A DNA stretch of 42,176 nt. Source: a virus (lineage: Duplodnaviria; Caudoviricetes). Position numbers and translations under genes: made by a program. Below are positions 7,901-40,960 of the stretch, one piece after another. The stretch is from the IMG/VR virus record IMGVR_UViG_3300017747_002841, positions 1 to 42,176 of that record; one strand, given 5' to 3'. The notes below the pieces were generated by a model that saw nothing but the letters and a program-made list of their open reading frames with translations, searched no databases and was not told the DNA's origin. Position 1 is the stretch's first letter. Every line of letters starts with the position of its first letter.

Positions 7901-9176
7901 TGCGCTGGAATTCCACCGCGGCCCGCTGTTCCTCCGTCAACGCCGCCGGCACTTCCACCCGTTTCTCGACCACTACCGGATCACCCGCCACCGCGCCCGC
8001 CGGTTCCGGCTGCACCTTCGGCAACGCGCCCTTGAGCCGTTGACTCCCCGGCGCCTCCCCGCGCAGCACCGCCTGCAGCTCCGCCAAAGCATCCGCCGAC
8101 GTATCGGCCGGCGGTGCCGCCGGCTGACTCCTGACTTCTGGCTCCTGACTCCTTTCCTGCCCCTCCTCCGGCAACACCTCATAACCCCGCGATTCCCCGC
8201 GCAGATTGCTGAACACCTCACCCGGAGCCGTCGCCAGCTCGCCGATCGCTTCCGCCGCGATGTCCTTTGCGCTGATGTCCTGTCCGCTGGCCAGTTGCGC
8301 CGTCGCCTCACCCGCCGCGCCGCCCGCCATCTGCGCGCCCAGCTCCTTGCCCGTCGCCACCGCTACGCGCCCGACACCCTTACCCAGCGCCGGCTTGAGG
8401 AACTTGCCCGCCAAGCCCGCCGTCAAACCGTCAAAGAGCGCAATGGGAAAGCCCCGTTGCATGGCGAACGCCTTGGCCTGCTTCACCTTGGCCTCGTCCG
8501 AGAAGAACGCGCGCACCTGCTCCGGATCGGCCAGGTTGACGCCCTGCTCGTTGGCCGCTTCCAGGAAGGCATTCGCCGCCTCCACCGTAAACGATCCCGC
8601 GCCCGCACCCACCGCCGCGCCACCGGGACCAGCCGCCGCGCCGGCTGCCATGCCCGCCGCCATGCCGGTCGCCGCCTGTGGCAAGGATTCCGCGAAGATG
8701 TTCGCCGTGATCTCGACCGGATTGCGCGCGAACACCTGCCACCAATTGGAATTGTCCGCCTTGCTCCATTCCTGCATGGCCGCGCTTTGCGGGATCTGGT
8801 TTGCCCGCTGCGTCAGATCTCCGATGTTCTGAGCCGTGGCGATGTTCTGTTCCTTGGCCGGGCCCATCGCCGCCTTGAGCCGCGCCGCTGGCCCGAAGAG
8901 GCTTTCCACCTTGGCCGGATCCTCCGCGCTCATCAGTCCCTCCATGTAACGCGGATCCTCCATCGCGCCCACAAAGGCGCGCCGGCCCTGTCGGATGGTT
9001 GGCTTGTCGTCCTTGAATTGCAGCGCCTCAATCGACCGTTGCCCGGCCAGATTCCCGCGCTTGAAGCTGTTGGCGATGCCCTCCAGCGTCCCCGGCGTCT
9101 CTGCCGGTTCGTCGCCTAGAATCTCATACCCGCCCGGCGTGGCCGGCGCTTCGTCCTCCAGAATGTCGTAAGGCAT
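1821..9176 (-). CDS. Giant internal virion/ejection protein with large-polyvalent-protein (LPD1-like) and zincin-like HExxH region
   Basis: 2451 aa, last gene of the virion operon. Motifs DFGQKLGGARKD, FGFRGVEFGNW, INLTKTRGAGSLGHEWFHALD and YWSRIIERAARSFENY are typical of phage/plasmid large polyvalent proteins. Confidence 0.8.
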   Translation of the reverse strand: MPYDILEDEAPATPGGYEILGDEPAETPGTLEGIANSFKRGNLAGQRSIEALQFKDDKPTIRQGRRAFVGAMEDPRYMEGLMSAEDPAKVESLFGPAARLKAAMGPAKEQNIATAQNIGDLTQRANQIPQSAAMQEWSKADNSNWWQVFARNPVEITANIFAESLPQAATGMAAGMAAGAAAGPGGAAVGAGAGSFTVEAANAFLEAANEQGVNLADPEQVRAFFSDEAKVKQAKAFAMQRGFPIALFDGLTAGLAGKFLKPALGKGVGRVAVATGKELGAQMAGGAAGEATAQLASGQDISAKDIAAEAIGELATAPGEVFSNLRGESRGYEVLPEEGQERSQEPEVRSQPAAPPADTSADALAELQAVLRGEAPGSQRLKGALPKVQPEPAGAVAGDPVVVEKRVEVPAALTEEQRAAVEFQRKTDEAVKAAVQNPDKNYEGMSRLELELLEGMGDARATAALRRMRARRNANVEVESAKVEIPAANVGSPVANVEVPEVKPVVDLEAAMQAQAKPVEPVPPVQPVKPAKPPKPPTAAAVAREGAREFDRLVLENAMQAGWVTSPEHLYDDAVNVKTGHGTGSIKAKILRSKELAKARKQAAAAIGAKDVDLSDTAKRGALAARLKEWVEANVTGSQRQSADFSQSIEKGAVGVPVSEMKVGDTLNIDGEPVRVVEVSPDGEVTLQDGTRFGRQVLQDGTTIYAEEWQSVAEEGADSFPTLEAISDSLKKPETDQTAVEQGGTKPAAPTLKSGQKQGDLLGSGDVAFNLFSEQTQSGERIEAERRQREETERAAKEFKEKNQQELPQTKTRAQLDFEKQNPGALNNARELGDESFKVVERAKGQGKHVFQVIGSKSGRSYFETVSAAKAALRRDQMESALDKHQQDLPTVSAAKTEPVAAPVSGLQDFGQKLGGARKDLQPSLNRDFTDEELATKSFSEIWPKSEVDEIEDIAVASIAHAVREEIPSKPRQRYKVARWVERVKLVRELMRITKEKGPDEVMRRMDGYKLEQLVNKIRVLREVPRSEWGRVEKVEVFPDAYRYSGDAKIPSPSAVAVVDGKTIRDSSLEGITEKVKALLASAEPEQRMRFQVRGSDERGYFINKEGDPLVRKLKTFPTAKEALDFARNPDNYGELLQAWEGVKETDNVKETDVRREANRERAGADHRQGRDATPEMFMETFGFRGVEFGNWVSQGKNLKERQGMLNAAYDGLMDLAAIVGVPSNSISLNGELGLGLGSRGHGWASAHFEPGTFVINLTKTRGAGSLGHEWFHALDNYFQRHRGASGDREGRFITYQPETYYENSQGFKLSETRFNELSTRRGIRTPGDWKRVEGVRPEVASAFAELVRALDASPMAKRAQLIDAGKSGGYWSRIIERAARSFENYLITKMKDAGYHNDYLANVVGVEDFARDEGRYPYLLDSEMKPVAEAFDKLFKAVKVVGRDPVDAQLTEWIEKLGLKPGALYEGVTGAPVWLTRAAARGVLQVVRAAYRAGKSIANAVQDGIEWLRGQNIPGFDETEAKEWLDGQAVDDVATSLRRQINALGAEMDAFKERGEEIPAAMLDEYKELVDTLGDEIRSGRANSGAGRVKVDDNLEESGARSQESGRELRGIPQWNGAERLPGGRLKDLFTGLGAWRVKSGNWLARRGARETTVVNRDVADNRANQAANAASLRVRLILNRAFDTKPGQVRVKHEGREAALTFVVEADGERSRLSDFYDQISASEHADTKAGRQALAALEYAAANWDKLQPAAAEYKTLTETEREAELNEGVNSPEWKGGYVKHSWARDDVGAGADPTKPAAAGTPFRKPRSVATYAEGIAQGRKPTTLNALELLADRVAGGQRKLNELAWVHGLRNLMDPATDMPVVVDVIKKPRKPANLPAEDSERAQAQDEAGITYKPDWVTIAPEGYTVWRFGELEVAVQENFVGLLNKLTAASFFKGSSAKKVFGFIKSSLLMFDTFHLGRMVAWRQMFGLGGGYQKGQTLLDFSAADIREMAARGEIPEAWADGLQENKRRLDLALRTGFNVGNVLDNAWGDALHNLPVVGTFNHWLFGQYQRGAMTEAWLIEFERMSRALPNASEEQVARRVSKDLNARFGNLNRQGLFKSRTAQDLARFVFLAPQWNESLIRAELGAIVQTLKTPMESIQQRRLVVGTLMRATGAMALGTFLANQILNYAFRGKPTWENEEEGWDKKISAYIPDAVSGGPGFFLNPLALPMEYTHLIEGNLHRSGGDLSEALRRVAVSRLHAAARPAEMFLTRKDALGAKLRDGEVLPAMAKALIPIPIGAVSPATAAKQLISGEPSERFPGQYQKQMMASFGVKTDQAPTAEQRIRNLAREFNREKGIVPSAEFFTGDFDELNKALRIGNNTEARKALDELLLKKTPRQVFDHYKRVAAAPFTGQQAREKEFWRGLTEEQRGQYVKAREARKATAKKAAEMLKAKAFPVAR
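4358..4387. repeat. 30-bp heptamer-based repeat, copy 1
   Basis: CTGACTCCTGACTTCTGGCTCCTGACTCCT, identical to 8124-8153. Confidence 0.85.
8124..8153. repeat. 30-bp heptamer-based repeat, copy 2
   Basis: Identical to 4358-4387 but translated in a different frame of the same gene. Confidence 0.85.
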
Positions 9177-9180
9177 AAAG

Positions 9181-10128
9181 TCACTTCAAACGCACCCGCT
9201 TGGCTTCGCCGTTGATGTAGAGCCTCACGACATCGGGTGCCTTATGGCCCGCCGCCCGCGCCGCCTCTTCCGTGGCAAAGACGCCCGGCCCGATGACGTT
9301 GCCTCCCGGCTGCACTGCCGCCGGCGCGCCTTCGAGCCCCGCCTTGCGCTGCGGTTTACCACCCGCGGGAATGCCTGGACGCTGCAAAATCTCCTCAATT
9401 TCGCCCTGCTGCTGGAGTGTCGGTCCCGCCGCCGCTGCCGCCTCCTCATCCGCCGCCGCCTTCGCCGCCGCCTCCGCCGCCATCGCCTTTTCCAAGTCAG
9501 CCGGCGACATCTTCCGCGTGATCTTCCGCTTCGGCTCACCGCTTACGTCGTCGATCTCTTCTGACATCGTGACCGAGTTCGGATTCTCAGACTTCTCAAA
9601 GTTGCCCGTGCGCCGGTTGTAAACGAACGGCGCGCCCGTTTCCGGATCCTTCCAAGACCGCGGCGCGTTATCCTCCGGCGTCGGCAGCTTGAACATTTTC
9701 ACCCCGATCCCCACCTTGCCGAGCTTCTCGGAAAACGCCTGATTCATCTGCTCGATCCCGTCCTCCGTCAGCATCCCCTCCTTGCCCATGCTCTCGAGCA
9801 CGCGCCATTTGCCCTCCTCATCCTTGGCCGCGGCGAGTTGCGCCTGGTATTGCTCGATCTTCTTTTGGTGCGCGATCTGACTGTCCAGCGCCAGCTTGCG
9901 ATTCTCCCGCGCGTCACTGCGATCCGCGGTCTGCCCGGCCAGTTCATCGCGACGCAATCCAAGCGTGTCTTCGTGCTCCCGCTTGCGCAGCCCCATCATC
10001 TCCTCATTCAACCGCTGTTGCGCCGCCCTTTCCTTCTCGGCCTGCGTCAGCGCGCGATTGCGTTGGAACGTGTCCCCCAGGTCCCTCATCGACCTGTTCA
10101 AGATCTCTATTTCAGCAACAGTAGGCAT
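9181..10128 (-). CDS. Putative internal virion (ejection) protein
   Basis: 315 aa, coiled-coil-like N-terminal half, directly upstream of the giant gene. Confidence 0.6.
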   Translation of the reverse strand: MPTVAEIEILNRSMRDLGDTFQRNRALTQAEKERAAQQRLNEEMMGLRKREHEDTLGLRRDELAGQTADRSDARENRKLALDSQIAHQKKIEQYQAQLAAAKDEEGKWRVLESMGKEGMLTEDGIEQMNQAFSEKLGKVGIGVKMFKLPTPEDNAPRSWKDPETGAPFVYNRRTGNFEKSENPNSVTMSEEIDDVSGEPKRKITRKMSPADLEKAMAAEAAAKAAADEEAAAAAGPTLQQQGEIEEILQRPGIPAGGKPQRKAGLEGAPAAVQPGGNVIGPGVFATEEAARAAGHKAPDVVRLYINGEAKRVRLK

Positions 10129-16694: not shown

Positions 16695-17978
16695 TTAATC
16701 CCCGATCTCCTTCCAGATTTCCACCACCGTATAAATTTCGCCCAGCCCGTGACTTCCCGGCGTTCCACCCGTTCCATTGTCGGAAACATTGTGCTCCACC
16801 TGGAACGTCTGCGAACCCACCACCGCGATCCGGCCCACAATCCGGCTCTCCGTCGTGACGCTACCGCTGGCCGATGACGTCGCACTGGAGCCAATCAACC
16901 ACGTTGCCCCGCCCGTCACGTTGTAAAGCCGCGCCTGATGGTTGTCACAGTTGAACGCCGGCGCCGTGATCGAAATGCGATAAGTGCCCGTCCCGAGCGT
17001 GAACTGGTTCGCGCTCAAGGTCACGATGCCGCCCGTGTCCACCGCCTCCAGGTTCAGCGTCCGCACCTCCCAGCCGCTCGCCGCGGTCAACGTCTGCGCC
17101 GCCGTCGTGTTCGCGTTGCTCTCCATGATCACCGCGTAATGCCGAGGAATCACGTCCCCTCCGATGAAGTCCTTCAGCTCGTTCATGAACAGCTTTTTCA
17201 GCGCCCCGCCTTGCAGCACCACAAACGCGTCATTCGTCGCCGGCGCCGTGTTCGTGCTCGTCAGCCCGTCGATCTTGTTCGTCTCGTAGGCCGAGCGCAG
17301 GCGCGTCCCGTCCCACACCACGCTTTGATAATTACCCCAATTCGTCGCCGCCGTCTGATCCTTCACGATGCTCTCCAGCGCCATCTGCTTCACCGCGCGC
17401 CCGTTCGCCGTCAGCACCGCCAGCGCATCGCCGTTCGTCGGCAGCGCATGCGACGTCAACCCGCCCAAAAGATTCGAAAGCGTCAGGCTCGACGGCACCC
17501 CGCCATGAAGCACCGGAAACCGCGTGTCATTCGTCGGCGAGCTTGTCGCCGTCCCGCCAAAAAGCCAGTTGCTCCAGGTCATCGACCGATATGCGCTGGC
17601 GCTCGCGTCATAGACCAGCACCAGGTCATCCACCGCCGGCGCCGTCGCTGCCGTCCGGCTGGACAGCAAGGACGCATGATCAAGCAACGCACTGATTGGC
17701 ATCTTCTGGTAGCTGTCCAGCGTCGTATTGTGCAGCAAGAGCGTGAACGCCGTATTCGGATCCGTGCCGGCCGAGCCTTTCCCGCTAAAAAACGTCGTGT
17801 TGATCGTGCCCGCCGCCGAATTGTTCAGCTTCGTATGCGTGACATTCGCTTCGCCACTGCTGAACGTATAGCCCGGCGTAATGTCCGCACCATAGGACAA
17901 CGCTTGTCCTACCATCAAAACCACCGCCCACCGCAGAAAGATATTCATTTTGAGTTTATGAGTTTCGGCTTGATTCAT
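16695..17978 (-). CDS. Putative tail fiber/structural protein with signal-peptide-like N-terminus
   Basis: Start 17978 (TGATG overlap) or 17948. FLRWAVVLMVGQALSYGA signal-like segment; Thr/Asn-rich; repeated PxxxD-hydrophobic units; C-terminal beta-sandwich-like region. Confidence 0.6.
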   Translation of the reverse strand: MNQAETHKLKMNIFLRWAVVLMVGQALSYGADITPGYTFSSGEANVTHTKLNNSAAGTINTTFFSGKGSAGTDPNTAFTLLLHNTTLDSYQKMPISALLDHASLLSSRTAATAPAVDDLVLVYDASASAYRSMTWSNWLFGGTATSSPTNDTRFPVLHGGVPSSLTLSNLLGGLTSHALPTNGDALAVLTANGRAVKQMALESIVKDQTAATNWGNYQSVVWDGTRLRSAYETNKIDGLTSTNTAPATNDAFVVLQGGALKKLFMNELKDFIGGDVIPRHYAVIMESNANTTAAQTLTAASGWEVRTLNLEAVDTGGIVTLSANQFTLGTGTYRISITAPAFNCDNHQARLYNVTGGATWLIGSSATSSASGSVTTESRIVGRIAVVGSQTFQVEHNVSDNGTGGTPGSHGLGEIYTVVEIWKEIGD

Positions 17979-31181: not shown

Positions 31182-31225
31182 TTCTGTTCCTTTTTCTGAG
31201 TTTTTGAGTTCCGGCTAAAATCAGT

Positions 31226-32740
31226 TCACCCCGCATCAAACCCCCGCAACACATCCTCACTCACCGTCGGCTCCGCCCCCTGGTCCTCGCCAATGTAAGG
31301 CCCGAACGTGCTATAAGGATTCACCGCCCGCTCCTCGCCCCCGATGTTGATCGAATGCATCACAGGTAGGTTGCCCATCGCCCCCAGAATCACCTCCGCC
31401 CGGTCTGGCGACCGCTGCGGCCGTTGGTCCCGAGCCTGCCGCGCGAACAGATCGCGCTTCGACTCCACCCAGCGCAACCCGCTCGAATCATATTTGCCAA
31501 TCCGATCCACCAGTTGCCCCTTGAAATCCGTATCATCCGGAATGATGACGCGCCGCTGCTTGATCGCCTCCGTCCCGTTAAACCAGTTTTCGCTCTCCCG
31601 ATTCCGGAACTTGTCCGGCTCAAACGCCCGCGCGTTCGCGTGATACTCGAGGATCGGCCAGCCCGCCTCCTGGATGCGTTGCACCATCGGCTTGCCCATC
31701 CCGTCCGCGTCGCCTTCCACCTCTTCCGGACGCAGCCCTATCGAGCGCCGCAATCCCTCCAGCTTCGTAATGAACCGTCCCACCGCGCTCATGGTGTTCT
31801 TGTCCCGCCAAACGTCCTCGAACCAAGTCTTGTTCCCGCGCCGCACGCCGATGCTGTTCTCGTCCCCGCCCGCCGCGAAATCGAGCCGCACATGCCGATC
31901 CGTCCCCTTCTGCCCCGGCGGTTCATTCACGCAATCCGCGATCTCCGTCAGCCCGATCAGCGAATCCTGCACGAACGGCATGAACTTCGCGAAAAATGCC
32001 GATTGAATAAACGGATCCTGCAACCCCCGATCGTAATCCCCACCCCCGGCGCGCGTGATCACCCGCTTCATCTCCTCGCGGTCAATCCACGGGCAATCCT
32101 CCACCGTCATTTGAAACGTGTTCCAGAACTTCGCCTCCGTGCTTTGAGACTCGTAGAATTTGCCCATCGCAAACCCCGGCGAACTCAGCAACCCCATCCG
32201 CTGCGGCCGGCAACGATCCTCACCCGCCCGGATGATTCCATCCGCCACTGACTTGCATTCGTCGAAAAGCATCATCAGCGGCGTCTCTGGCGACCCGTGG
32301 AAACCCTCCGCCCGCCCCGCCTGACTCGCCGAGTAAGCCATGAAGTTCGGCACCCCGCCAATCTTGATCTCCGTGTCCTGGAATTCCCAACTCGCCGGGA
32401 ACTTGTGCGAATAACTCCGGAGCGCCGGCATTAGTTGATTCTTAATCTGCGCCCAGCTTCCACTGGTTGCCGTCACGCCCCCGTTCTCACCCCGCCGCGG
32501 GAACACCGTCAGGTGCCACAGAATCACCGCCGGCATGATCTTCGTCGTCTTGCCCGCCTCATTACAGCACACGAACGACACATGCGACCGCGTGGGCCCG
32601 AATGCGTTCACGATCGCCTCCTGCTTCACCGTCAGCGGAATCCCGAGCTTGAACCGCGCAAACCCCGCCGGCGTCGCCAGCGCCATCCGCACCTTCTCCG
32701 GCAAGCTCGACACCGCCACCCGTTTATCATCCTTAGCCAT
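31226..32740 (-). CDS. terL: Terminase large subunit
   Basis: Walker A NEAGKTT, Walker B LMMLFDE, coupling motif LSSP, RNase H-like LDFAAGGDE / DADGMG / SPDRAE. Confidence 0.9.
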   Translation of the reverse strand: MAKDDKRVAVSSLPEKVRMALATPAGFARFKLGIPLTVKQEAIVNAFGPTRSHVSFVCCNEAGKTTKIMPAVILWHLTVFPRRGENGGVTATSGSWAQIKNQLMPALRSYSHKFPASWEFQDTEIKIGGVPNFMAYSASQAGRAEGFHGSPETPLMMLFDECKSVADGIIRAGEDRCRPQRMGLLSSPGFAMGKFYESQSTEAKFWNTFQMTVEDCPWIDREEMKRVITRAGGGDYDRGLQDPFIQSAFFAKFMPFVQDSLIGLTEIADCVNEPPGQKGTDRHVRLDFAAGGDENSIGVRRGNKTWFEDVWRDKNTMSAVGRFITKLEGLRRSIGLRPEEVEGDADGMGKPMVQRIQEAGWPILEYHANARAFEPDKFRNRESENWFNGTEAIKQRRVIIPDDTDFKGQLVDRIGKYDSSGLRWVESKRDLFARQARDQRPQRSPDRAEVILGAMGNLPVMHSINIGGEERAVNPYSTFGPYIGEDQGAEPTVSEDVLRGFDAG

Positions 32741-33687
32741 CAGGCCATGACCTCCAGCGGACTCCGCACGCTCATGGCCTCTGCGTGCAAGTAACCCATC
32801 GTCGTCTCCAGCGACTTGTGCCCCATCGCCTGCTGAATCGCCCGCGGGTTCGTGCCTTGATTCAAGCAGTGCGTGGCGTAAGCGTGCCGCAACTCATGCG
32901 GCTTGATGTTCCCGCCGCTGGCCTGGCGAATCGCAAGCTGCACGTTCGCCTCGTGCAACCGATACCGCACCAACTCACCCGTGCGCGGATGTTCACACGC
33001 CGCCTTCTGCGGAAACACCCACGCCCATTTCCACGCGAACCGGCTTTGCGGATACTTCTTGCCCAGCAAGCCCGGCAATTGCAGCGGCAGTCCGTTGGCC
33101 ACGTCCCGCTTCCAAGTCACCTTCGCCGCTTCCATCGCATCGCGCAGACCAGCGTGCAGCGAGCACGGCAACGGAACGACGCGATCCTTGCCGCCCTTCG
33201 CCCCACGAATGACGAGGCGCTGATTCTGCAACTCCACATCCTTCACGCGCAGATTGCACGGCTCCGTCACGCGGAGACCGCACCCGTAAATCAGATGCGT
33301 GATCAGTCGCGTAGGATAGCCATGCACATCTTTAACCGCGGCCAGCAACGCACGCACCTCTTCCCGGCTGGGAGCCTCGCGCAACGTCACCGGCTTGTTG
33401 GCCCGCAACGCATCAATCCGCGCCAGTGGTTGTCCCACGATCTCGCGATAAAACATCACCAGCGCATTGAACGCCTGATTCTGCGTCGAAGCCGAAACAT
33501 CCTGCCGCGCCAACTGCGACAAGAACGCCTCCACCTTTTGCTCGCCCGTCATCCCCGCCACAGGCTCGCCGGCCAGAAAGCGCATGTACCGCGCCAGCCA
33601 CGCCAGATAACTCTGCTCCGTGGACAGCGCAAAATGCTTTAACCGCATGTAACCACGGAACTTGTCGAATGCTTGGCTTGGTTTCAT
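32740..33687 (-). CDS. intI: Integron integrase (IntI-type tyrosine recombinase)
   Basis: N-terminal MRLKHFALSTEQSYLAW...VSASTQNQAFNAL; YGCGLR, KGGKDR, HELRH, MGH...TTMGY; the integron-specific insertion LPGLLGKKYP...WKWAWVFP...HPRTG is present. Confidence 0.92.
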   Translation of the reverse strand: MKPSQAFDKFRGYMRLKHFALSTEQSYLAWLARYMRFLAGEPVAGMTGEQKVEAFLSQLARQDVSASTQNQAFNALVMFYREIVGQPLARIDALRANKPVTLREAPSREEVRALLAAVKDVHGYPTRLITHLIYGCGLRVTEPCNLRVKDVELQNQRLVIRGAKGGKDRVVPLPCSLHAGLRDAMEAAKVTWKRDVANGLPLQLPGLLGKKYPQSRFAWKWAWVFPQKAACEHPRTGELVRYRLHEANVQLAIRQASGGNIKPHELRHAYATHCLNQGTNPRAIQQAMGHKSLETTMGYLHAEAMSVRSPLEVMA

Positions 33688-33703
33688 ATAGCAATGAGCG
33701 GTT

Positions 33704-33722
33704 GTCTAATCACTTGTTAGAC
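33704..33722 (+). mobile_element. attI-like simple site (L box GTCTAAT, 5-bp spacer, R box GTTAGAC)
   Basis: Lies 16 bp upstream of the intI start; GTTAGAC is the exact complement of the R'' box (GTCTAAC) of the next attC. Confidence 0.7.
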
Positions 33723-33923
33723 ATTTTGGCCCACGAGTGCGGTTTCGAGCCTGTCCACTTGCTTTTCAAGGTCTTTGATTTTTGCCAGTAGTGCATCGGC
33801 TGGCTTTTCGAGCGCGGAGGCCATCACGACGACTTTTGTGGCCTGTTCGGATGCTGGGAGTTTTTCGATCTCTTGGCAGAGGTCGTAGATGTCTTTGTAT
33901 ATCGGATGAGCGAGTATGTTCAT
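33717..33923 (-). CDS. Cassette 1 ORF, 68-aa helical/coiled-coil hypothetical protein
   Basis: Fills the cassette exactly; its TAA stop lies inside the attI R box. Confidence 0.7.
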   Translation of the reverse strand: MNILAHPIYKDIYDLCQEIEKLPASEQATKVVVMASALEKPADALLAKIKDLEKQVDRLETALVGQNV

Positions 33924-34010
33924 AAATGTCTAACCATTCAGTGCAGGCAACGGCGGGTTGCGCTGCGGGTTTATTTCGAGCCGTCAGGTCCGCCGTGCCT
34001 GACTTCACCG
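33717..34010 (+). mobile_element. Integron gene cassette 1 (294 bp)
   Basis: Runs from G/TTAGAC to G/TTCGGC; the end boxes GTTAGACATTT and AAATGTCTAAC are perfect 11-bp complements. Confidence 0.8.
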
Positions 34011-34016
34011 TTCGGC
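33928..34016 (+). mobile_element. attC site 1 (89 bp)
   Basis: R'' GTCTAAC; left arm AGT(G)CAGGCA(A)CGGCGG pairs with right arm CCGCCGTGCCTGACT leaving two extrahelical bases; R' GTTCGGC. Confidence 0.88.
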
Positions 34017-34579
34017 TTCAAGAACGCGCACCAGTGCGTTTTCGCCTGCTTGCCGGTGCGGTGGCCGTAAAGCGGTTGCACTGGCGTCAGTGCCAGTATT
34101 TCGCGCAGCGGCACTTCGATTTCGTTCCACTTGAAGATGAGTGTGCCTTCGGGTTTCAGGACGCGGAAGCACTCCGCGAATCCGAGGCGCAGCATCTCGC
34201 GCCAGTCACCGCGCAGGACGCCATACTTTTTGAGCAGCCAGCTCGTATCCCCGTTCCGTTGGATGTGCGGCGGGTCGAAGATGACGTGCGCGAATGTGTT
34301 GTCATCGAACGGCAGGTCTGTGAAGTCGGCTACGATGTCAGGGTCTATCACGATTTCTCGCTCGCCATTCTTCACTGAGCAGTCAGCGGCCAGATGTTTC
34401 TCACGGCGCTTGTCGAGGTAGATTGCCTGCGGATTCTTGCGGTCGAACCAGAACATCCGAGACCCGCAGCACACGTCCAGCACTGAAGCCGAACCATGCG
34501 CTGCACGCGAACAGCCGCCCCGCTTCTCCGTTTCGGGAGTCGCGAGCGGCAGGACGGTTTGCGTGTCGGCGTGAGTCAT
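33971..34579 (-). CDS. Cassette 2 ORF, class I SAM-dependent (probably DNA amino-) methyltransferase
   Basis: VLDVCCGSRMFWFD (SAM binding), VIFDPPH (catalytic-like), ECFRVLKPEGTLIFKWNE; a family common in phages. Confidence 0.85.
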   Translation of the reverse strand: MTHADTQTVLPLATPETEKRGGCSRAAHGSASVLDVCCGSRMFWFDRKNPQAIYLDKRREKHLAADCSVKNGEREIVIDPDIVADFTDLPFDDNTFAHVIFDPPHIQRNGDTSWLLKKYGVLRGDWREMLRLGFAECFRVLKPEGTLIFKWNEIEVPLREILALTPVQPLYGHRTGKQAKTHWCAFLKPNGEVRHGGPDGSK

Positions 34580-34606
34580 TGTCGGCGGCTGTCGGTGAGC
34601 TTGTCG
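34011..34606 (+). mobile_element. Integron gene cassette 2 (596 bp)
   Basis: Starts GTTCGGCTTCA (34010), whose exact complement TGAAGCCGAAC (34484-34494) opens attC2. Confidence 0.8.
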
Positions 34607-34612
34607 TTCTCT
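34488..34612 (+). mobile_element. attC site 2 (125 bp)
   Basis: R'' GCCGAAC; left arm GCT(G)CAC(G)CGA(A)CAGCCGCC pairs with GGCGGCTGTCGGTGAGC leaving three extrahelical bases; R' GTTCTCT. Confidence 0.85.
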
Positions 34613-34613
34613 C

Positions 34614-34633
34614 TGAGTTTATGAGTTTCGGCT
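34614..34633. repeat. Dispersed 20-bp repeat TGAGTTTWTGAGTTYCGGCT (also at 17951, 31197 and 38904)
   Basis: Four same-strand copies, all at gene boundaries. Confidence 0.8.
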
Positions 34634-34637
34634 AAAA

Positions 34638-35120
34638 TCATTTCTTTTCCCCCACGTACATCGCCTTTGCCATCTTCTCCAACTCCGCCGCCTCCGCCAT
34701 CGTCAGCCCGCCGCTTTCCCCGTGGCTCTCCGCCGGCTTATGCACCTCCGTCTTGTTGAAATGCGGCTTGTAACGCCGCTCCAGCACCCAGGCGAACCCC
34801 GTCCACGGACGGATCCGCGTCTTCGTTACCCCATCCTTGTCCATCTCCGTCGCGCCCGCGGCATCGCGGTAAATAATCTCCTCACCGCCCTCCTTGATCG
34901 CCTTCAACGCCCGCGCCATATACCGCGCGTGTTTCAACAGCATGATCTCGCGGAAATCCTCGCGCCGACTCACCACCGGCCCAAACGTCGAAGCATTCAC
35001 ACCGACGAGCGCACACGCGTAATCCTGCGGAATCCCGTCCGCCATATACTCGCCCACCTCCTCGACAATCTGCCGCGTGATCTTCCGCGGACGCCCGCCC
35101 TTGGATTTCTTTTTGGTCAT
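34638..35120 (-). CDS. terS: Putative terminase small subunit
   Basis: GGRPRKIT start, HTH-like YACALVGVNASTF, WTGFAWVLERRY motif; would directly precede terL if the integron were removed. Confidence 0.65.
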   Translation of the reverse strand: MTKKKSKGGRPRKITRQIVEEVGEYMADGIPQDYACALVGVNASTFGPVVSRREDFREIMLLKHARYMARALKAIKEGGEEIIYRDAAGATEMDKDGVTKTRIRPWTGFAWVLERRYKPHFNKTEVHKPAESHGESGGLTMAEAAELEKMAKAMYVGEKK

Positions 35121-35923
35121 CGCGCCACCCTTCCCGCCGCACCCGTCCGGATCCGGCTCAAATAAACCTGGTTCGCATACCCCGGCAGATTCCGCACAAA
35201 CGGCCGGCGCGCCGCCGCCTCCTCAATCGCGAACACCACCAAGTCCGCGTTTTCCTTCACGCGCCGCTCCCACAACTCCGCCGCCCCTGGACGCAGCTCC
35301 GTCAGATACTGCGCGATCATCGCCCGCGCCTGCGCTCCGTCCCCGGTCCCCTTCCGGATTCCGGAACTCACATGATCATGATTAAGGCATGTTCTTTCAG
35401 TGGCATGTTTCGGAACATGATCATGATCAGAACCATGATCGCGAGCCGTCCGGATTCCGGATGGGACTCGTCCGGATTCCGGATGCCCCTTTCCCGAATC
35501 CGGTAATGCCTCTCCCGATTCGGGAGAACCATCCACCGCCGCCCTCATGCGCCCGACCATGCTGCCCACCGCCGGCACCGCCAACGCCTCGCTCATGCTC
35601 ATGCTCTCCGTCGCCAGCGCCAGCCGCGCCGCCACAGATTTGCCCCGCCATGCTTCCAACCATGCTGCGCGCTCCATGCACTCCGTCACGCGCCAAAACT
35701 CCACCGGCTGCACCCGCACCACCATTCCCTCCACCGCCCGAGCCTCCAGCGTCACCCCGCCCAGGCGCTCACACTCCCGCATCGTCTCCAGCACATGATT
35801 GCGCGGAATGCCCGTGCGCGCCGACCACTCCGCCACCGACACCGGCCCGCCGTCTCGCAACGCCGCCACCAGCAACCGCAACGCCTGCGGACGCCACTTA
35901 AAGCGCAACAGCTCCGTAGTCAT
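35117..35923 (-). CDS. Putative replication initiator (N-terminal HTH, internal iterons)
   Basis: Probable ATG at 35923; wHTH-like SVAEWSARTGIPRNHVLETMRE; linker built on DNA repeats; C-terminal VRNLPGY motif. Confidence 0.6.
   Translation of the reverse strand: MTTELLRFKWRPQALRLLVAALRDGGPVSVAEWSARTGIPRNHVLETMRECERLGGVTLEARAVEGMVVRVQPVEFWRVTECMERAAWLEAWRGKSVAARLALATESMSMSEALAVPAVGSMVGRMRAAVDGSPESGEALPDSGKGHPESGRVPSGIRTARDHGSDHDHVPKHATERTCLNHDHVSSGIRKGTGDGAQARAMIAQYLTELRPGAAELWERRVKENADLVVFAIEEAAARRPFVRNLPGYANQVYLSRIRTGAAGRVAR
35353..35525. promoter_or_regulatory. Putative replication origin (iterons)
   Basis: TCCGGATTCCGGA-like palindromes at 35353, 35449, 35471, 35492 and 35513 (21-22 bp spacing); CATGATCATGAT at 35371 and 35416. 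Confidence 0.6.
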
Positions 35924-36269
35924 GCGATCCTTTCTCCCGTTCCAGCCACACCACCACCGGCTCAATATGCACCGTCGGCTTGGCCACCATCGAATTCGTA
36001 AACCGGAACACCCGCCACCCCAGGCGCGCCGCGGCATTATATTTCTCGCAATCCGCCGCAAACCCGAGCCCGCGCGTATGCCGCCCGCCCGTCCATTGTC
36101 CTCCCTCGATCTCGATCGCCACCCGGCGCGCCGGCAGCGCGAAGTCAAAGCGCCACTTCCGCGCCGGATCAAACCTCACCTCCGCCGTCAACTTCGGCCC
36201 GCCCAGCGCGCGCCAATAGTGCGCGAACGTCGCCGATAGCCTGCTATCGTTGGATTTCACGCGCCTCAT
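35898..36269 (-). CDS. PD-(D/E)XK endonuclease (Vsr/DUF559-like)
   Basis: EVRF...RKWRFDFA...VAIEIEGG...GRHTRG...DCEKYNAA..LGWRVFRFT. Confidence 0.85.
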   Translation of the reverse strand: MRRVKSNDSRLSATFAHYWRALGGPKLTAEVRFDPARKWRFDFALPARRVAIEIEGGQWTGGRHTRGLGFAADCEKYNAAARLGWRVFRFTNSMVAKPTVHIEPVVVWLEREKGSHDYGAVAL

Positions 36270-38900: not shown

Positions 38901-39359
38901 TTATGAGTTTTTGAGTTTCGGCTCTACCTCCTCGAAATGCCCCGCATTGAACCAGAGCGGGATCCCCTTCAACGTGATCATCACGCTCCCGGCTCCGTTC
39001 GACATCACACTGGCCACCGTGTAAACCTTCCCGTGCGTCAACGTCTCCGCCGCCGTCACCTGATGCCCGATCGCGCCCGCCGTCGGGTTCTCGTAGCGCA
39101 CCATCATCCCAACCACCGGCACAAACTTCCCCGCGCGCAACCGCTCGATCTCCGCCACCTGCGGACGCCGCGCCGCACACGCCGGACACCACACCTCATC
39201 CCCGATTTGCAGCCAACCGCGCACCGTGGCATCGCCCAACGCCTCCTTGCGCCCCTCTTCCGGCGTAGTCATCGGCATGGCCGTTGCGATCCCGCTGCAT
39301 TCCTCATTGCCTTCCAACCACCCACTGCACAACAGATTGACCTCGTAAGTGAATTTCAT
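38901..39359 (-). CDS. Hypothetical protein with Cys motifs
   Basis: C..C and GW....WCPAC Zn-ribbon-like N-terminus plus a small beta domain. Confidence 0.6.
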   Translation of the reverse strand: MKFTYEVNLLCSGWLEGNEECSGIATAMPMTTPEEGRKEALGDATVRGWLQIGDEVWCPACAARRPQVAEIERLRAGKFVPVVGMMVRYENPTAGAIGHQVTAAETLTHGKVYTVASVMSNGAGSVMITLKGIPLWFNAGHFEEVEPKLKNS

Positions 39360-40264: not shown

Positions 40265-40861
40265 TCACGCCGCCACCTCCGCCTTCAGCTTCATCGCGCA
40301 CGGCGGACAAATGCCGTGACTCACCGCGCCCGTCGCGCCCGGCATCGGCAGATCCGCCCAAAGCCCGTCAACGCGCCACTGCTTGCACCAAGCGCACTGC
40401 ACTTGCAGCCCCACCTTTGCCGCCAGCCACTTCTCCGCATCCACGCCGAACACCACATCCCCGATCGGCACCTGCGACACATGCCCCGTCTCGGGATGCC
40501 GCACGGAAACCATCACCACGCGCGTCCGCTCATCGAGCCACGAGACAAGCGCCTCGTGCCACTCGCCCGGATGCTCCCCCGTTGTCTTCGGGATGCACCG
40601 GCTCGCAAGAGGAATGTTGAACGGCTCCGCGTTCATGCCGCCTCCACATCCCGCCGAATCAACCGGCGCACATACTTCGAGAAATCCAGATCCGGCTCGG
40701 ACTGAACCCGCGCCTCGACCTTCGGCCACATCGCCTTCAGCCAGCAACTTCGCCCGCTGGCAGCTTTGGCACACACGTTCCGAGTGTTTGCCGGGAAGCT
40801 CGAACTGCTTCCAACACACCTGGCACAGCGCCTCGTATCGGAATGTTTCAGTCCTGTTCAT
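40265..40861 (-). CDS. Hypothetical Cys-rich protein (alternative internal start at 40636)
   Basis: Both possible starts overlap the TGA of a repeat copy; CAWC...SHGICPPC C-terminal motif and CQVC/CQSC N-terminal motif. Confidence 0.55.
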   Translation of the reverse strand: MNRTETFRYEALCQVCWKQFELPGKHSERVCQSCQRAKLLAEGDVAEGRGAGSVRAGSGFLEVCAPVDSAGCGGGMNAEPFNIPLASRCIPKTTGEHPGEWHEALVSWLDERTRVVMVSVRHPETGHVSQVPIGDVVFGVDAEKWLAAKVGLQVQCAWCKQWRVDGLWADLPMPGATGAVSHGICPPCAMKLKAEVAA

Positions 40862-40960
40862 GCCGCCTCCACATCCCGCCGGATCAACCGGCGCACATAC
40901 TTGGAAAAATCCAGATCCGGCTCGGATAACACCCGCGCCTCGACCTTCGGCCACATCGCC
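40631..40960. repeat. 105-bp direct repeat (40631-40735 and 40856-40960), 225-bp period
   Basis: 98/105 identical by manual comparison. Confidence 0.9.

What the first reader, a model, noticed from the sequence alone, without database searches (positions are those of the whole stretch)
33971..34579. Methyltransferase borrows its start and stop codons from attC sites
Seen: the ATG (34579) lies in the loop of attC2, so the first ~31 residues (MTHADT...AHGSA) are attC-encoded. The recognisable domain starts at the R'' box (SVLDVCCG) and ends at the left cassette boundary (HWCAFLK). The tail PNGEVRHGGPDGSK and the stop (33971) come from attC1, which belongs to the neighbouring cassette. The cassette 1 ORF likewise stops inside the attI R box. 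Inference: attC sites double as translation signals, and reordering cassettes would change C-termini or create fusions.
Basis: partly seen in the sequence, partly recalled or inferred. Interest (0 to 1): 0.8.

Follow-up and report, generated by a model that had tools for sequence, protein, structure and literature searches.

The report
Frame-locked backwards cassettes in phage integron
This phage carries a complete gene-swapping integron between its two DNA-packaging genes, with the swappable genes written backwards, so the methyltransferase's reading frame opens inside one recombination hairpin and stops inside the neighbour's; a shared reading-frame rule at the swap point would let genes be reshuffled without fusing, changing only a short, likely inert tail.

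Summary
Observation confirmed. The window is a 42-kb phage. Between terS and terL lie intI (TIGR02249 above cutoff), attI and two cassettes whose genes are antisense to their attC sites. The methyltransferase ORF opens in the attC2 loop and stops in the attC1 loop. Conservation in 94 homologs runs from V33 to K188; among 43 ending in xN, 42 tails differ after the Asn. The C-terminus does change with the neighbour, but fusions are not supported. The crossover AAC is mostly read as Asn, and 83 of 83 attC sites from 20 related phage integrons stop that frame inside the site (other frames 45 and 48; bacterial sites 30 of 52). Simulated excision or swapping left both genes whole. Loop ATGs opened the next gene at 56 of 83 sites (permuted mean 38.5), and 27 overlapped that stop. 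New here: a 21-aa leader links the terS stop to the methyltransferase ATG through two ATGA overlaps, and a relative has the same leader. The true start (loop ATG or GTG at V33), IntI activity and the enzyme's target are untested. The scan noted this design before on other DNA; I did not find it in print.

The parts
34638..35120 (-). terminase small subunit; its TGA overlaps the leader ATG (ATGA)
   Evidence: phrog_4102, E 1.7e-11
34576..34641 (-). 21-aa leader ORF; runs through the 5' arm of attC2 with AAC as Asn; its TGA overlaps the methyltransferase ATG
   Evidence: same leader start, same frame and same double ATGA overlap in L091 5602-5652 with another cassette
34612..34644 (.). 33-nt phage repeat at the outer end of the array; other copies at 31195, 38902 and about 17951 lack the ATG
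34488..34612 (+). attC2 (R'' 34488-34494, R' 34606-34612); belongs to the methyltransferase cassette; loop holds leader stop and ATG
   Evidence: 77% identical sites head close methyltransferase relatives L027 and L028
33971..34579 (-). predicted SAM-dependent methyltransferase, 202 aa; core V33-K188; motifs LDxCCG and DPPH
   Evidence: phrog_954, E 2.3e-71; PF08241
34011..34606 (+). cassette 2 (596 bp), gene antisense to the cassette
   Evidence: core GTTCGGC at 34010 and GCCGAAC at 34488 are exact complements; related contigs break off at 34009-34010
33928..34016 (+). attC1 (R'' 33928-33934, R' 34010-34016); belongs to cassette 1; codes methyltransferase residues 191-202 and its stop
   Evidence: 95% identical site in L119 5424-5510 between two unrelated genes
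33717..33923 (-). cassette 1 gene, 68 aa, no family; ATG 4 nt past R''; stop in its own core site
33704..33722 (+). attI: L box 33704-33710, 5-nt spacer, R box 33716-33722; crossover 33716|33717; in-frame TGA two codons after the crossover on the minus strand
   Evidence: DNA similarity to L090 and L091 begins at 33718
32740..33687 (-). integron integrase IntI, 315 aa, intact; starts 29 nt from the attI crossover; its stop overlaps the terL start by one base
   Evidence: TIGR02249 266.6 bits, cutoff 265; R139, K164, H264, R267, H290, Y299 invariant in 4 of 4 (catalytic roles recalled)
31226..32740 (-). probable terminase large subunit (by position between terS and portal and by motifs; no named family hit)
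   Evidence: only phrog_5902 of unknown function, E 9.4e-6

Best explanation
This is a phage-resident integron whose cassette genes lie antisense to their attC sites and in line with the phage's terS-terL genes, so it is likely read as part of the packaging transcript, with each hairpin likely serving as a stop-and-restart point for ribosomes. Shown: intI, attI and two attC cassettes; the orientation; the overlaps terS stop/leader start and leader stop/methyltransferase ATG; a core that ends at the crossover; neighbour-dependent tails in relatives. Inferred: IntI recombines the folded bottom strand at G|TT as in other integrons. Because the mRNA is the bottom strand, each hairpin precedes its gene. 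The ribosome from the upstream gene (or the 21-aa leader) crosses the crossover reading AAC as Asn, melts the 5' arm, stops in the loop and restarts at the overlapping ATG. Each attC and attI carries a stop in that frame, so any cassette can be placed before any other; only a tail of about 11 residues changes. The attC-coded head and tail are probably unstructured by-products. The cargo is a predicted orphan amino-methyltransferase, most likely protecting phage DNA from restriction (inferred from family annotation and PMC9892861).
For: Stop in the Asn frame inside the site: 83 of 83 attC from 20 phage loci; other frames 45 and 48; bacterial 30 of 52; all sites stopped in 20 of 20 loci against 2 and 4 of 20; also 16 of 16 where the upstream gene does not use that frame. 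Asn frame open for 40 codons upstream at 64 of 80 sites against 32 and 21. Loop ATG open into the next gene at 56 of 83; 500 permutations gave mean 38.5, maximum 50; frame-shifted 32 and 28; bacterial 4 of 52; 27 of the 56 overlap the stop as ATGA. These ATGs have the A-rich context of the phage's own starts (0.34 against 0.31; unproductive loop ATGs 0.20, p 2e-7). Genes inverted at 78 of 83 sites against 18 of 52 bacterial. Core sites across a gene are complementary at 3.57 of 4 bases, null 1.67 (58 pairs). ATGA overlap in 5 of 11 attC-headed methyltransferases; L056 has no ATG, GTG or TTG between R'' and the motif. Loop AUG unpaired and V33 GUG paired in the predicted fold. pLDDT below 50 for residues 1-27, first strand 33-37, last strand 181-187.
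Against: No expression, proteomic or recombination data. V33 is GTG in 7 of 11 attC-headed relatives, including the closest, so an internal start is possible. This ATG's own upstream context has neither a Shine-Dalgarno-like nor an A-rich stretch. 27 of 83 sites have no productive loop ATG, and cassette 1 itself starts after R''. In more distant viral integrons 4 of 28 sites leave the Asn frame open, and in Rctr41k 2 of 4, so the rule is not universal. The raw longest-open-frame measure gave only 49 of 83 inverted; the 78 of 83 rests on an amino-acid model trained on this window's genes and on IntI proteins. Sites are not phylogenetically independent. As RNA, attC2 folds no better than shuffles (z -0.84). 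No cassette-1 excision joint was seen in the 4 runs laid, which were contigs only.
Confidence: 0.75

Rival explanations
1. The integron and the read-through tail are real, but translation starts at the GTG of V33 just past R''; the 32-residue head is an annotation artefact of choosing the first ATG.
For: GTG at V33 in 7 of 11 attC-headed relatives; the fold begins at V33; the head is unconserved.
Against: L056 has ATT there and no start codon past R''; L049 and L054 have GTT or ATT. None of the 120 best homologs is called as starting at this position, and the shortest head is 3 residues (gene callers' choices). The leader stop overlaps the loop ATG here and in L091. The GUG is predicted paired.
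Confidence: 0.15
2. Shuffling is a way to vary proteins: the borrowed tails (or occasional fusions) are functional modules, for example stability tags.
For: 42 distinct tails among 43 homologs ending in xN; the same attC1 tail is lent to an unrelated gene in L119; 4 of 28 distant viral sites allow read-through; a cassette fusion with a phenotype is known in a class 1 integron (PMC3375312, passages).
Against: Tails share no sequence (identity 0.05), range from 1 to 47 residues and lie outside the fold; the close clade stops the frame at 83 of 83 sites; the arm-coded part is constrained as DNA.
Confidence: 0.07
3. The array is a frozen relic: cassettes landed backwards once and starts and stops were fitted locally afterwards, with no reusable format.
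For: Selection for expression in the phage transcript would keep only inverted, expressible insertions; no live excision was seen.
Against: IntI is intact and 89-94% identical in phages with different cassettes at the same attI; stops in the Asn frame are present at 16 of 16 sites where the current neighbour does not need them; a 95% identical attC sits between other genes with the same stop.
Confidence: 0.08

Closest known systems
Canonical integrons (class 1; sedentary chromosomal integrons): IntI, attI, attC cassettes
   Same: IntI with the integron-integrase profile; attI upstream of intI; attC polarity relative to intI as in bacterial loci; G|TT crossover; complementary core sites.
   Different: Cassette genes point toward attI and intI instead of away; attC precedes its gene in the mRNA; intI starts 29 nt from the crossover, in line with the array; no sigma-70-type promoter found in 32500-36000.
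Phage-borne integrons and CALINs (Qi et al. 2023, PMC9892861)
   Same: attC arrays in phage genomes, several carrying DNA methyltransferases; phage attC sites shown there to recombine with IntI1.
   Different: The complete integrons there are host- or plasmid-derived. The parts I read do not describe antisense genes, starts in attC or frame-locking ('start codon' and 'antisense' 0 occurrences). Their IntI proteins are 30-35% identical to this one.
ORF-11 in attI1 and short ORFs inside attC that couple translation (reviewed in PMC8876359)
   Same: A short ORF crosses the crossover, needs a stop from the partner site and hands ribosomes on; translation through attC relieves the hairpin.
   Different: There it acts on the top strand and on some cassettes. 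Here it acts on the bottom strand, the genes' own termini are inside attC, and the leader lies at the far end of the array, fed by terS.
Inverted-integrase integrons of Treponema and others (PMC4889954, passage)
   Same: intI co-oriented with the cassette genes.
   Different: [quoted passage not shown]
PHROG 954 phage DNA methyltransferases
   Same: Core of about 155 residues with LDxCCG and DPPH; 252 of 50,697 phage records hold a relative.
   Different: Most relatives are ordinary phage genes with short ends: 43 of 54 distinct cores had no upstream attC call.

Membership tests
Integron | IntI-type tyrosine recombinase | tested here: met
   TIGR02249 266.6 bits against cutoff 265; narrow margin
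Integron | attI next to intI, with crossover at G|TT | tested here: met
   inverted L and R boxes, 5-nt spacer; similarity to L090 and L091 starts at 33718
Integron | attC sites R''-L''...L'-R' with an extrahelical base and a bottom-strand hairpin | tested here: met
   layout recalled, strand convention checked on a class 1 integron (L229: 4 strong calls follow genes on their own strand)
Integron | cassettes bounded by complementary core sites | tested here: met
   7 of 7 bases for both cassettes; 3.57 of 4 against 1.67 in relatives
Integron | IntI-mediated excision and integration | not testable with these tools
   indirect only: different cassettes at the same attI in L090 and L091
Canonical integron expression layout | cassette genes on the attC top strand, read from a Pc promoter at attI | tested here: not met
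   both genes antisense; no promoter-like site
CALIN | attC cluster without an integrase | tested here: not met
   intact intI adjacent
PHROG 954 methyltransferase | profile match over the core | tested here: met
   E 2.3e-71, residues 28-190
DNA amino-methyltransferase (N6-A or N4-C) | SAM-binding motif I, DPPY-like motif IV and Rossmann-type fold | tested here: inconclusive
   D102-P103-P104 invariant; fold matches are weak and shared between M.TaqI and tRNA or small-molecule methyltransferases, E about 5e-4, TM about 0.45
DNA amino-methyltransferase (N6-A or N4-C) | methylates DNA | not testable with these tools
   no assay; substrate inferred from family annotation

The most novel reading that the evidence does not exclude
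Phages of this group run their own integron standard: an active IntI in the phage transcript shuffles back-to-front cassettes whose crossover is a fixed Asn codon and whose hairpin loops carry stop and start, and shuffling also tunes output, through swappable C-terminal tags on cassette proteins and through the coupling chain that leads to IntI and the essential large terminase.
Probability: 0.15. Interest if true: 0.9.

Novelty: new variant of a known kind. Interest (0 to 1): 0.72.

Why it matters
Integrons are understood as bacterial devices with promoterless genes read away from attI. A phage-side format with reversed genes and a frame convention at the crossover implies a separate cassette pool built for polycistronic phage transcripts, and a route for trading methyltransferases and other accessory genes between phages. 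It gives testable rules (Asn frame, stop in loop, ATGA restart), and it warns that many predicted proteins carry attC-coded ends that are not part of their domains.

Tried and rejected
Rfam: no match in the window at gathering thresholds. Longest open frame as an orientation test: uninformative in GC-rich DNA, 49 of 83. Start at M42, chosen by gene callers for many relatives: rejected, it removes invariant C38, G39 and R41. A joint skipping 33718-34613 in run X1 looked like an empty site; it is the related phage L091, whose own cassette lies between the same boundaries (a contig matches L091 5200-6041 with no differences). No RNA holder listed. Exact DNA patterns for attI and for the leader found only L090 and L091, or L091 alone. 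Cassette 1's gene has no family and no match in the fetched loci. My detector misses some sites, including the L091 site (L box 7/7 but a short stem, and its predicted DNA fold is not the canonical hairpin), so counts are of detected sites only. The tree is the quick one; the careful search did not finish. Rows left out: L112 and L117 (duplicates of L101 and L114), L107 (no upstream DNA); L091 and L113 gave no usable site, so 20 of 22 loci contributed; L136 was counted with the distant group; 93 of the 120 listed homologs went into alignment A2.

Full report
Setting. The window is a whole virus record of 42,176 bases with direct terminal repeats. It has capsid, portal-like, tail fibre and terminase small subunit genes on the minus strand and a phage integrase at the start. 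Between terS (35120-34638) and the probable terL (32740-31226) lie, in reading order, a 21-aa leader, the methyltransferase, a 68-aa gene and an integron integrase. In a quick tree of 89 IntI proteins it falls in a 33-row clade (SH-aLRT 100): the window, 24 viral contigs and 8 genome contigs, 6 of them labelled Verrucomicrobiota. That phylum is the likely host (inference). Four genome members (L151, L152, L156, L157) have upstream genes mostly on the opposite strand to intI, and L156 has an attC after such a gene, the ordinary layout.

The sites are real. A detector written from the recalled attC layout called only attC1 (33928-34016) and attC2 (34488-34612) in the window at the stricter setting; shuffles gave 0.2 per 42 kb. 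The extra base of the L box places the top strand on + (7/7 and 6/7 pairs against at most 3.5 and 4.5). On a class 1 integron the same detector put its 4 strong calls after genes on their own strand. attI is marked by inverted boxes at 33704 and 33716, and similarity to two related phages (IntI 94% and 89% identical) starts at 33718, the expected crossover; each carries other cassettes there. Both cassettes are bounded by exactly complementary cores.

Termini. In 94 aligned proteins (the query and 93 of the 120 best of 7,939 hits), identity to the query is 0.09 over residues 1-29, 0.74 over 33-188 and 0.05 over 191-202; of 90 with a readable end, 43 continue as xN and 42 of these differ after the Asn. 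P0001, 98% identical, shares the attC2-coded head but has another tail, and members of the 90% clusters show the same (82 listed). attC1 recurs at 95% identity in L119, lending nearly the same tail to an unrelated gene and heading another. The model has pLDDT below 50 for residues 1-27, a first strand at 33-37 and a last at 181-187. So attC2 travels with the enzyme and attC1 does not. Only residues 191-202 are borrowed, and cassette 1's stop is its own.

No fusions. Simulated excision of cassette 1, swapped order, circles and the empty site all ended each gene within 13 residues of the crossover. In 83 attC sites from 20 related phage integrons the frame that reads the crossover AAC as Asn stops inside the site every time; the other frames do so at 45 and 48, and bacterial sites at 30 of 52. 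That frame is the one open upstream at 64 of 80 sites, against 32 and 21. At the 16 sites where it is not, the stop is still there (16 of 16), and 11 of these have a TAA in the core, as cassette 1 does. Tails have a median of 11 codons. All 22 inferred attI sites stop the frame at or before the intI start (the attI pattern was fitted to these loci). Against generality: 4 of 28 sites in more distant viral integrons and 2 of 4 in Rctr41k leave it open.

Start. A loop ATG is open into the next gene at 56 of 83 sites, against a mean of 38.5 (maximum 50) in 500 permutations and 4 of 52 bacterial sites; 27 of the 56 overlap the Asn-frame stop as ATGA, and they have the A-rich context of the phage's own starts. 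In the window the terS stop overlaps the ATG of a 21-aa leader that crosses the arm in the Asn frame and stops on the methyltransferase ATG. L091 has the same leader, one codon shorter before the crossover, coupled in the same way to an unrelated gene. Five of 11 attC-headed methyltransferases show the ATGA overlap, and L056 has no other start before the motif. The loop AUG is predicted unpaired and the V33 GUG paired. Against: V33 is GTG in 7 of those 11, and this ATG has no A-rich or Shine-Dalgarno-like context, so it would depend on coupling. I put the loop start at about 0.8.

Mechanism (inferred). The mRNA is the attC bottom strand, so each hairpin lies before its gene. A ribosome arriving from upstream opens the arm, stops in the loop and restarts. 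A common frame at the crossover, with a stop in every site, makes cassettes interchangeable. No promoter-like site lies in 32500-36000, intI starts 29 nt from the crossover and its stop overlaps the terL start, so the module is probably read with the packaging genes. The enzyme matches phrog_954; fold matches are weak and do not fix a substrate.

Known work. Qi et al. 2023 (PMC9892861; parts 2-4 of 7, passages, and a term search of the one supplement held) report phage integrons and CALINs with methyltransferases, but not this layout in what I read. Coupling by ORF-11 and by short ORFs in attC is reviewed in PMC8876359 (passages; the primary papers were not seen). A cassette fusion is described in PMC3375312 (passages). 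Inverted-integrase integrons are a different arrangement (PMC4889954, passage). PMC5737381 (passages) notes the DUF1874 motif, in 5' UTRs of consecutive genes, as a possible unusual attC; I did not test any link, and Rfam gave no match here. PMC13366799 (passages) was not relevant. Nine searches listed no paper whose title or abstract start describes inverted, frame-locked phage cassettes; the library lacks most subscription journals. The scan's own notes describe the design on other DNA (27 notes; 8 shown); they are not independent support.

Verdict. Observation confirmed, interpretation partly supported. New variant of a known kind; interest 0.72. The termini are best read as a by-product of a fusion-proof cassette format, not as a means of making new proteins.

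Noticed in passing
L228 (KX853513.1, Virus Rctr41k) 8415-10101: A GenBank phage with an IntI-like gene has four attC-like sites on the strand opposite to its annotated genes, between two methyltransferase-like genes, downstream of the integrase. No paper in the library names it.
   Followed up: partly
window 31195-31227, 34612-34644, 38902-38934, about 17951-17978; L091 5603, 6957, 9182, 9968: A roughly 33-nt repeat recurs between genes in both phages; only the copy at the outer end of the array has the ATG of the leader. It may be the original landing site of the first cassette.
   Followed up: partly
L091 and window, run X1: Both phages occur in one run with the same leader and attI but different cassettes and different flanking genes. 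The run may be the source of both assemblies.
   Followed up: partly
window 33921-34006: Contigs in runs X2 and X5 match from the attC1 side up to the cassette 1 ATG and then continue as different sequences, suggesting that attC plus start codon is a module reused by unrelated genes.
   Followed up: no
L102, L105, L108, L109, L119, L151, L152: 5-40 nt before intI: A TGTTCG-like motif precedes many intI starts, and forms an inverted repeat in two chromosomal members; it resembles a LexA box (recalled). It is absent in the window.
   Followed up: no
window 33717-34606: Cassette sense strands are C- and A-rich (G 0.23-0.29) while terS, intI and terL are G-rich (0.37-0.41), so the cassettes look compositionally foreign and intI does not.
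   Followed up: no
window 40631-40735 and 40856-40960: 105-nt direct repeat, 93% identical, in the early region.
   Followed up: no
L090, L091, L092: The intI-attI module sits in different places in related phages (before a primase-like gene, before a large gene that may be a terminase, before a replicative helicase-like gene; identities judged by eye), so the module itself seems to move.
   Followed up: no
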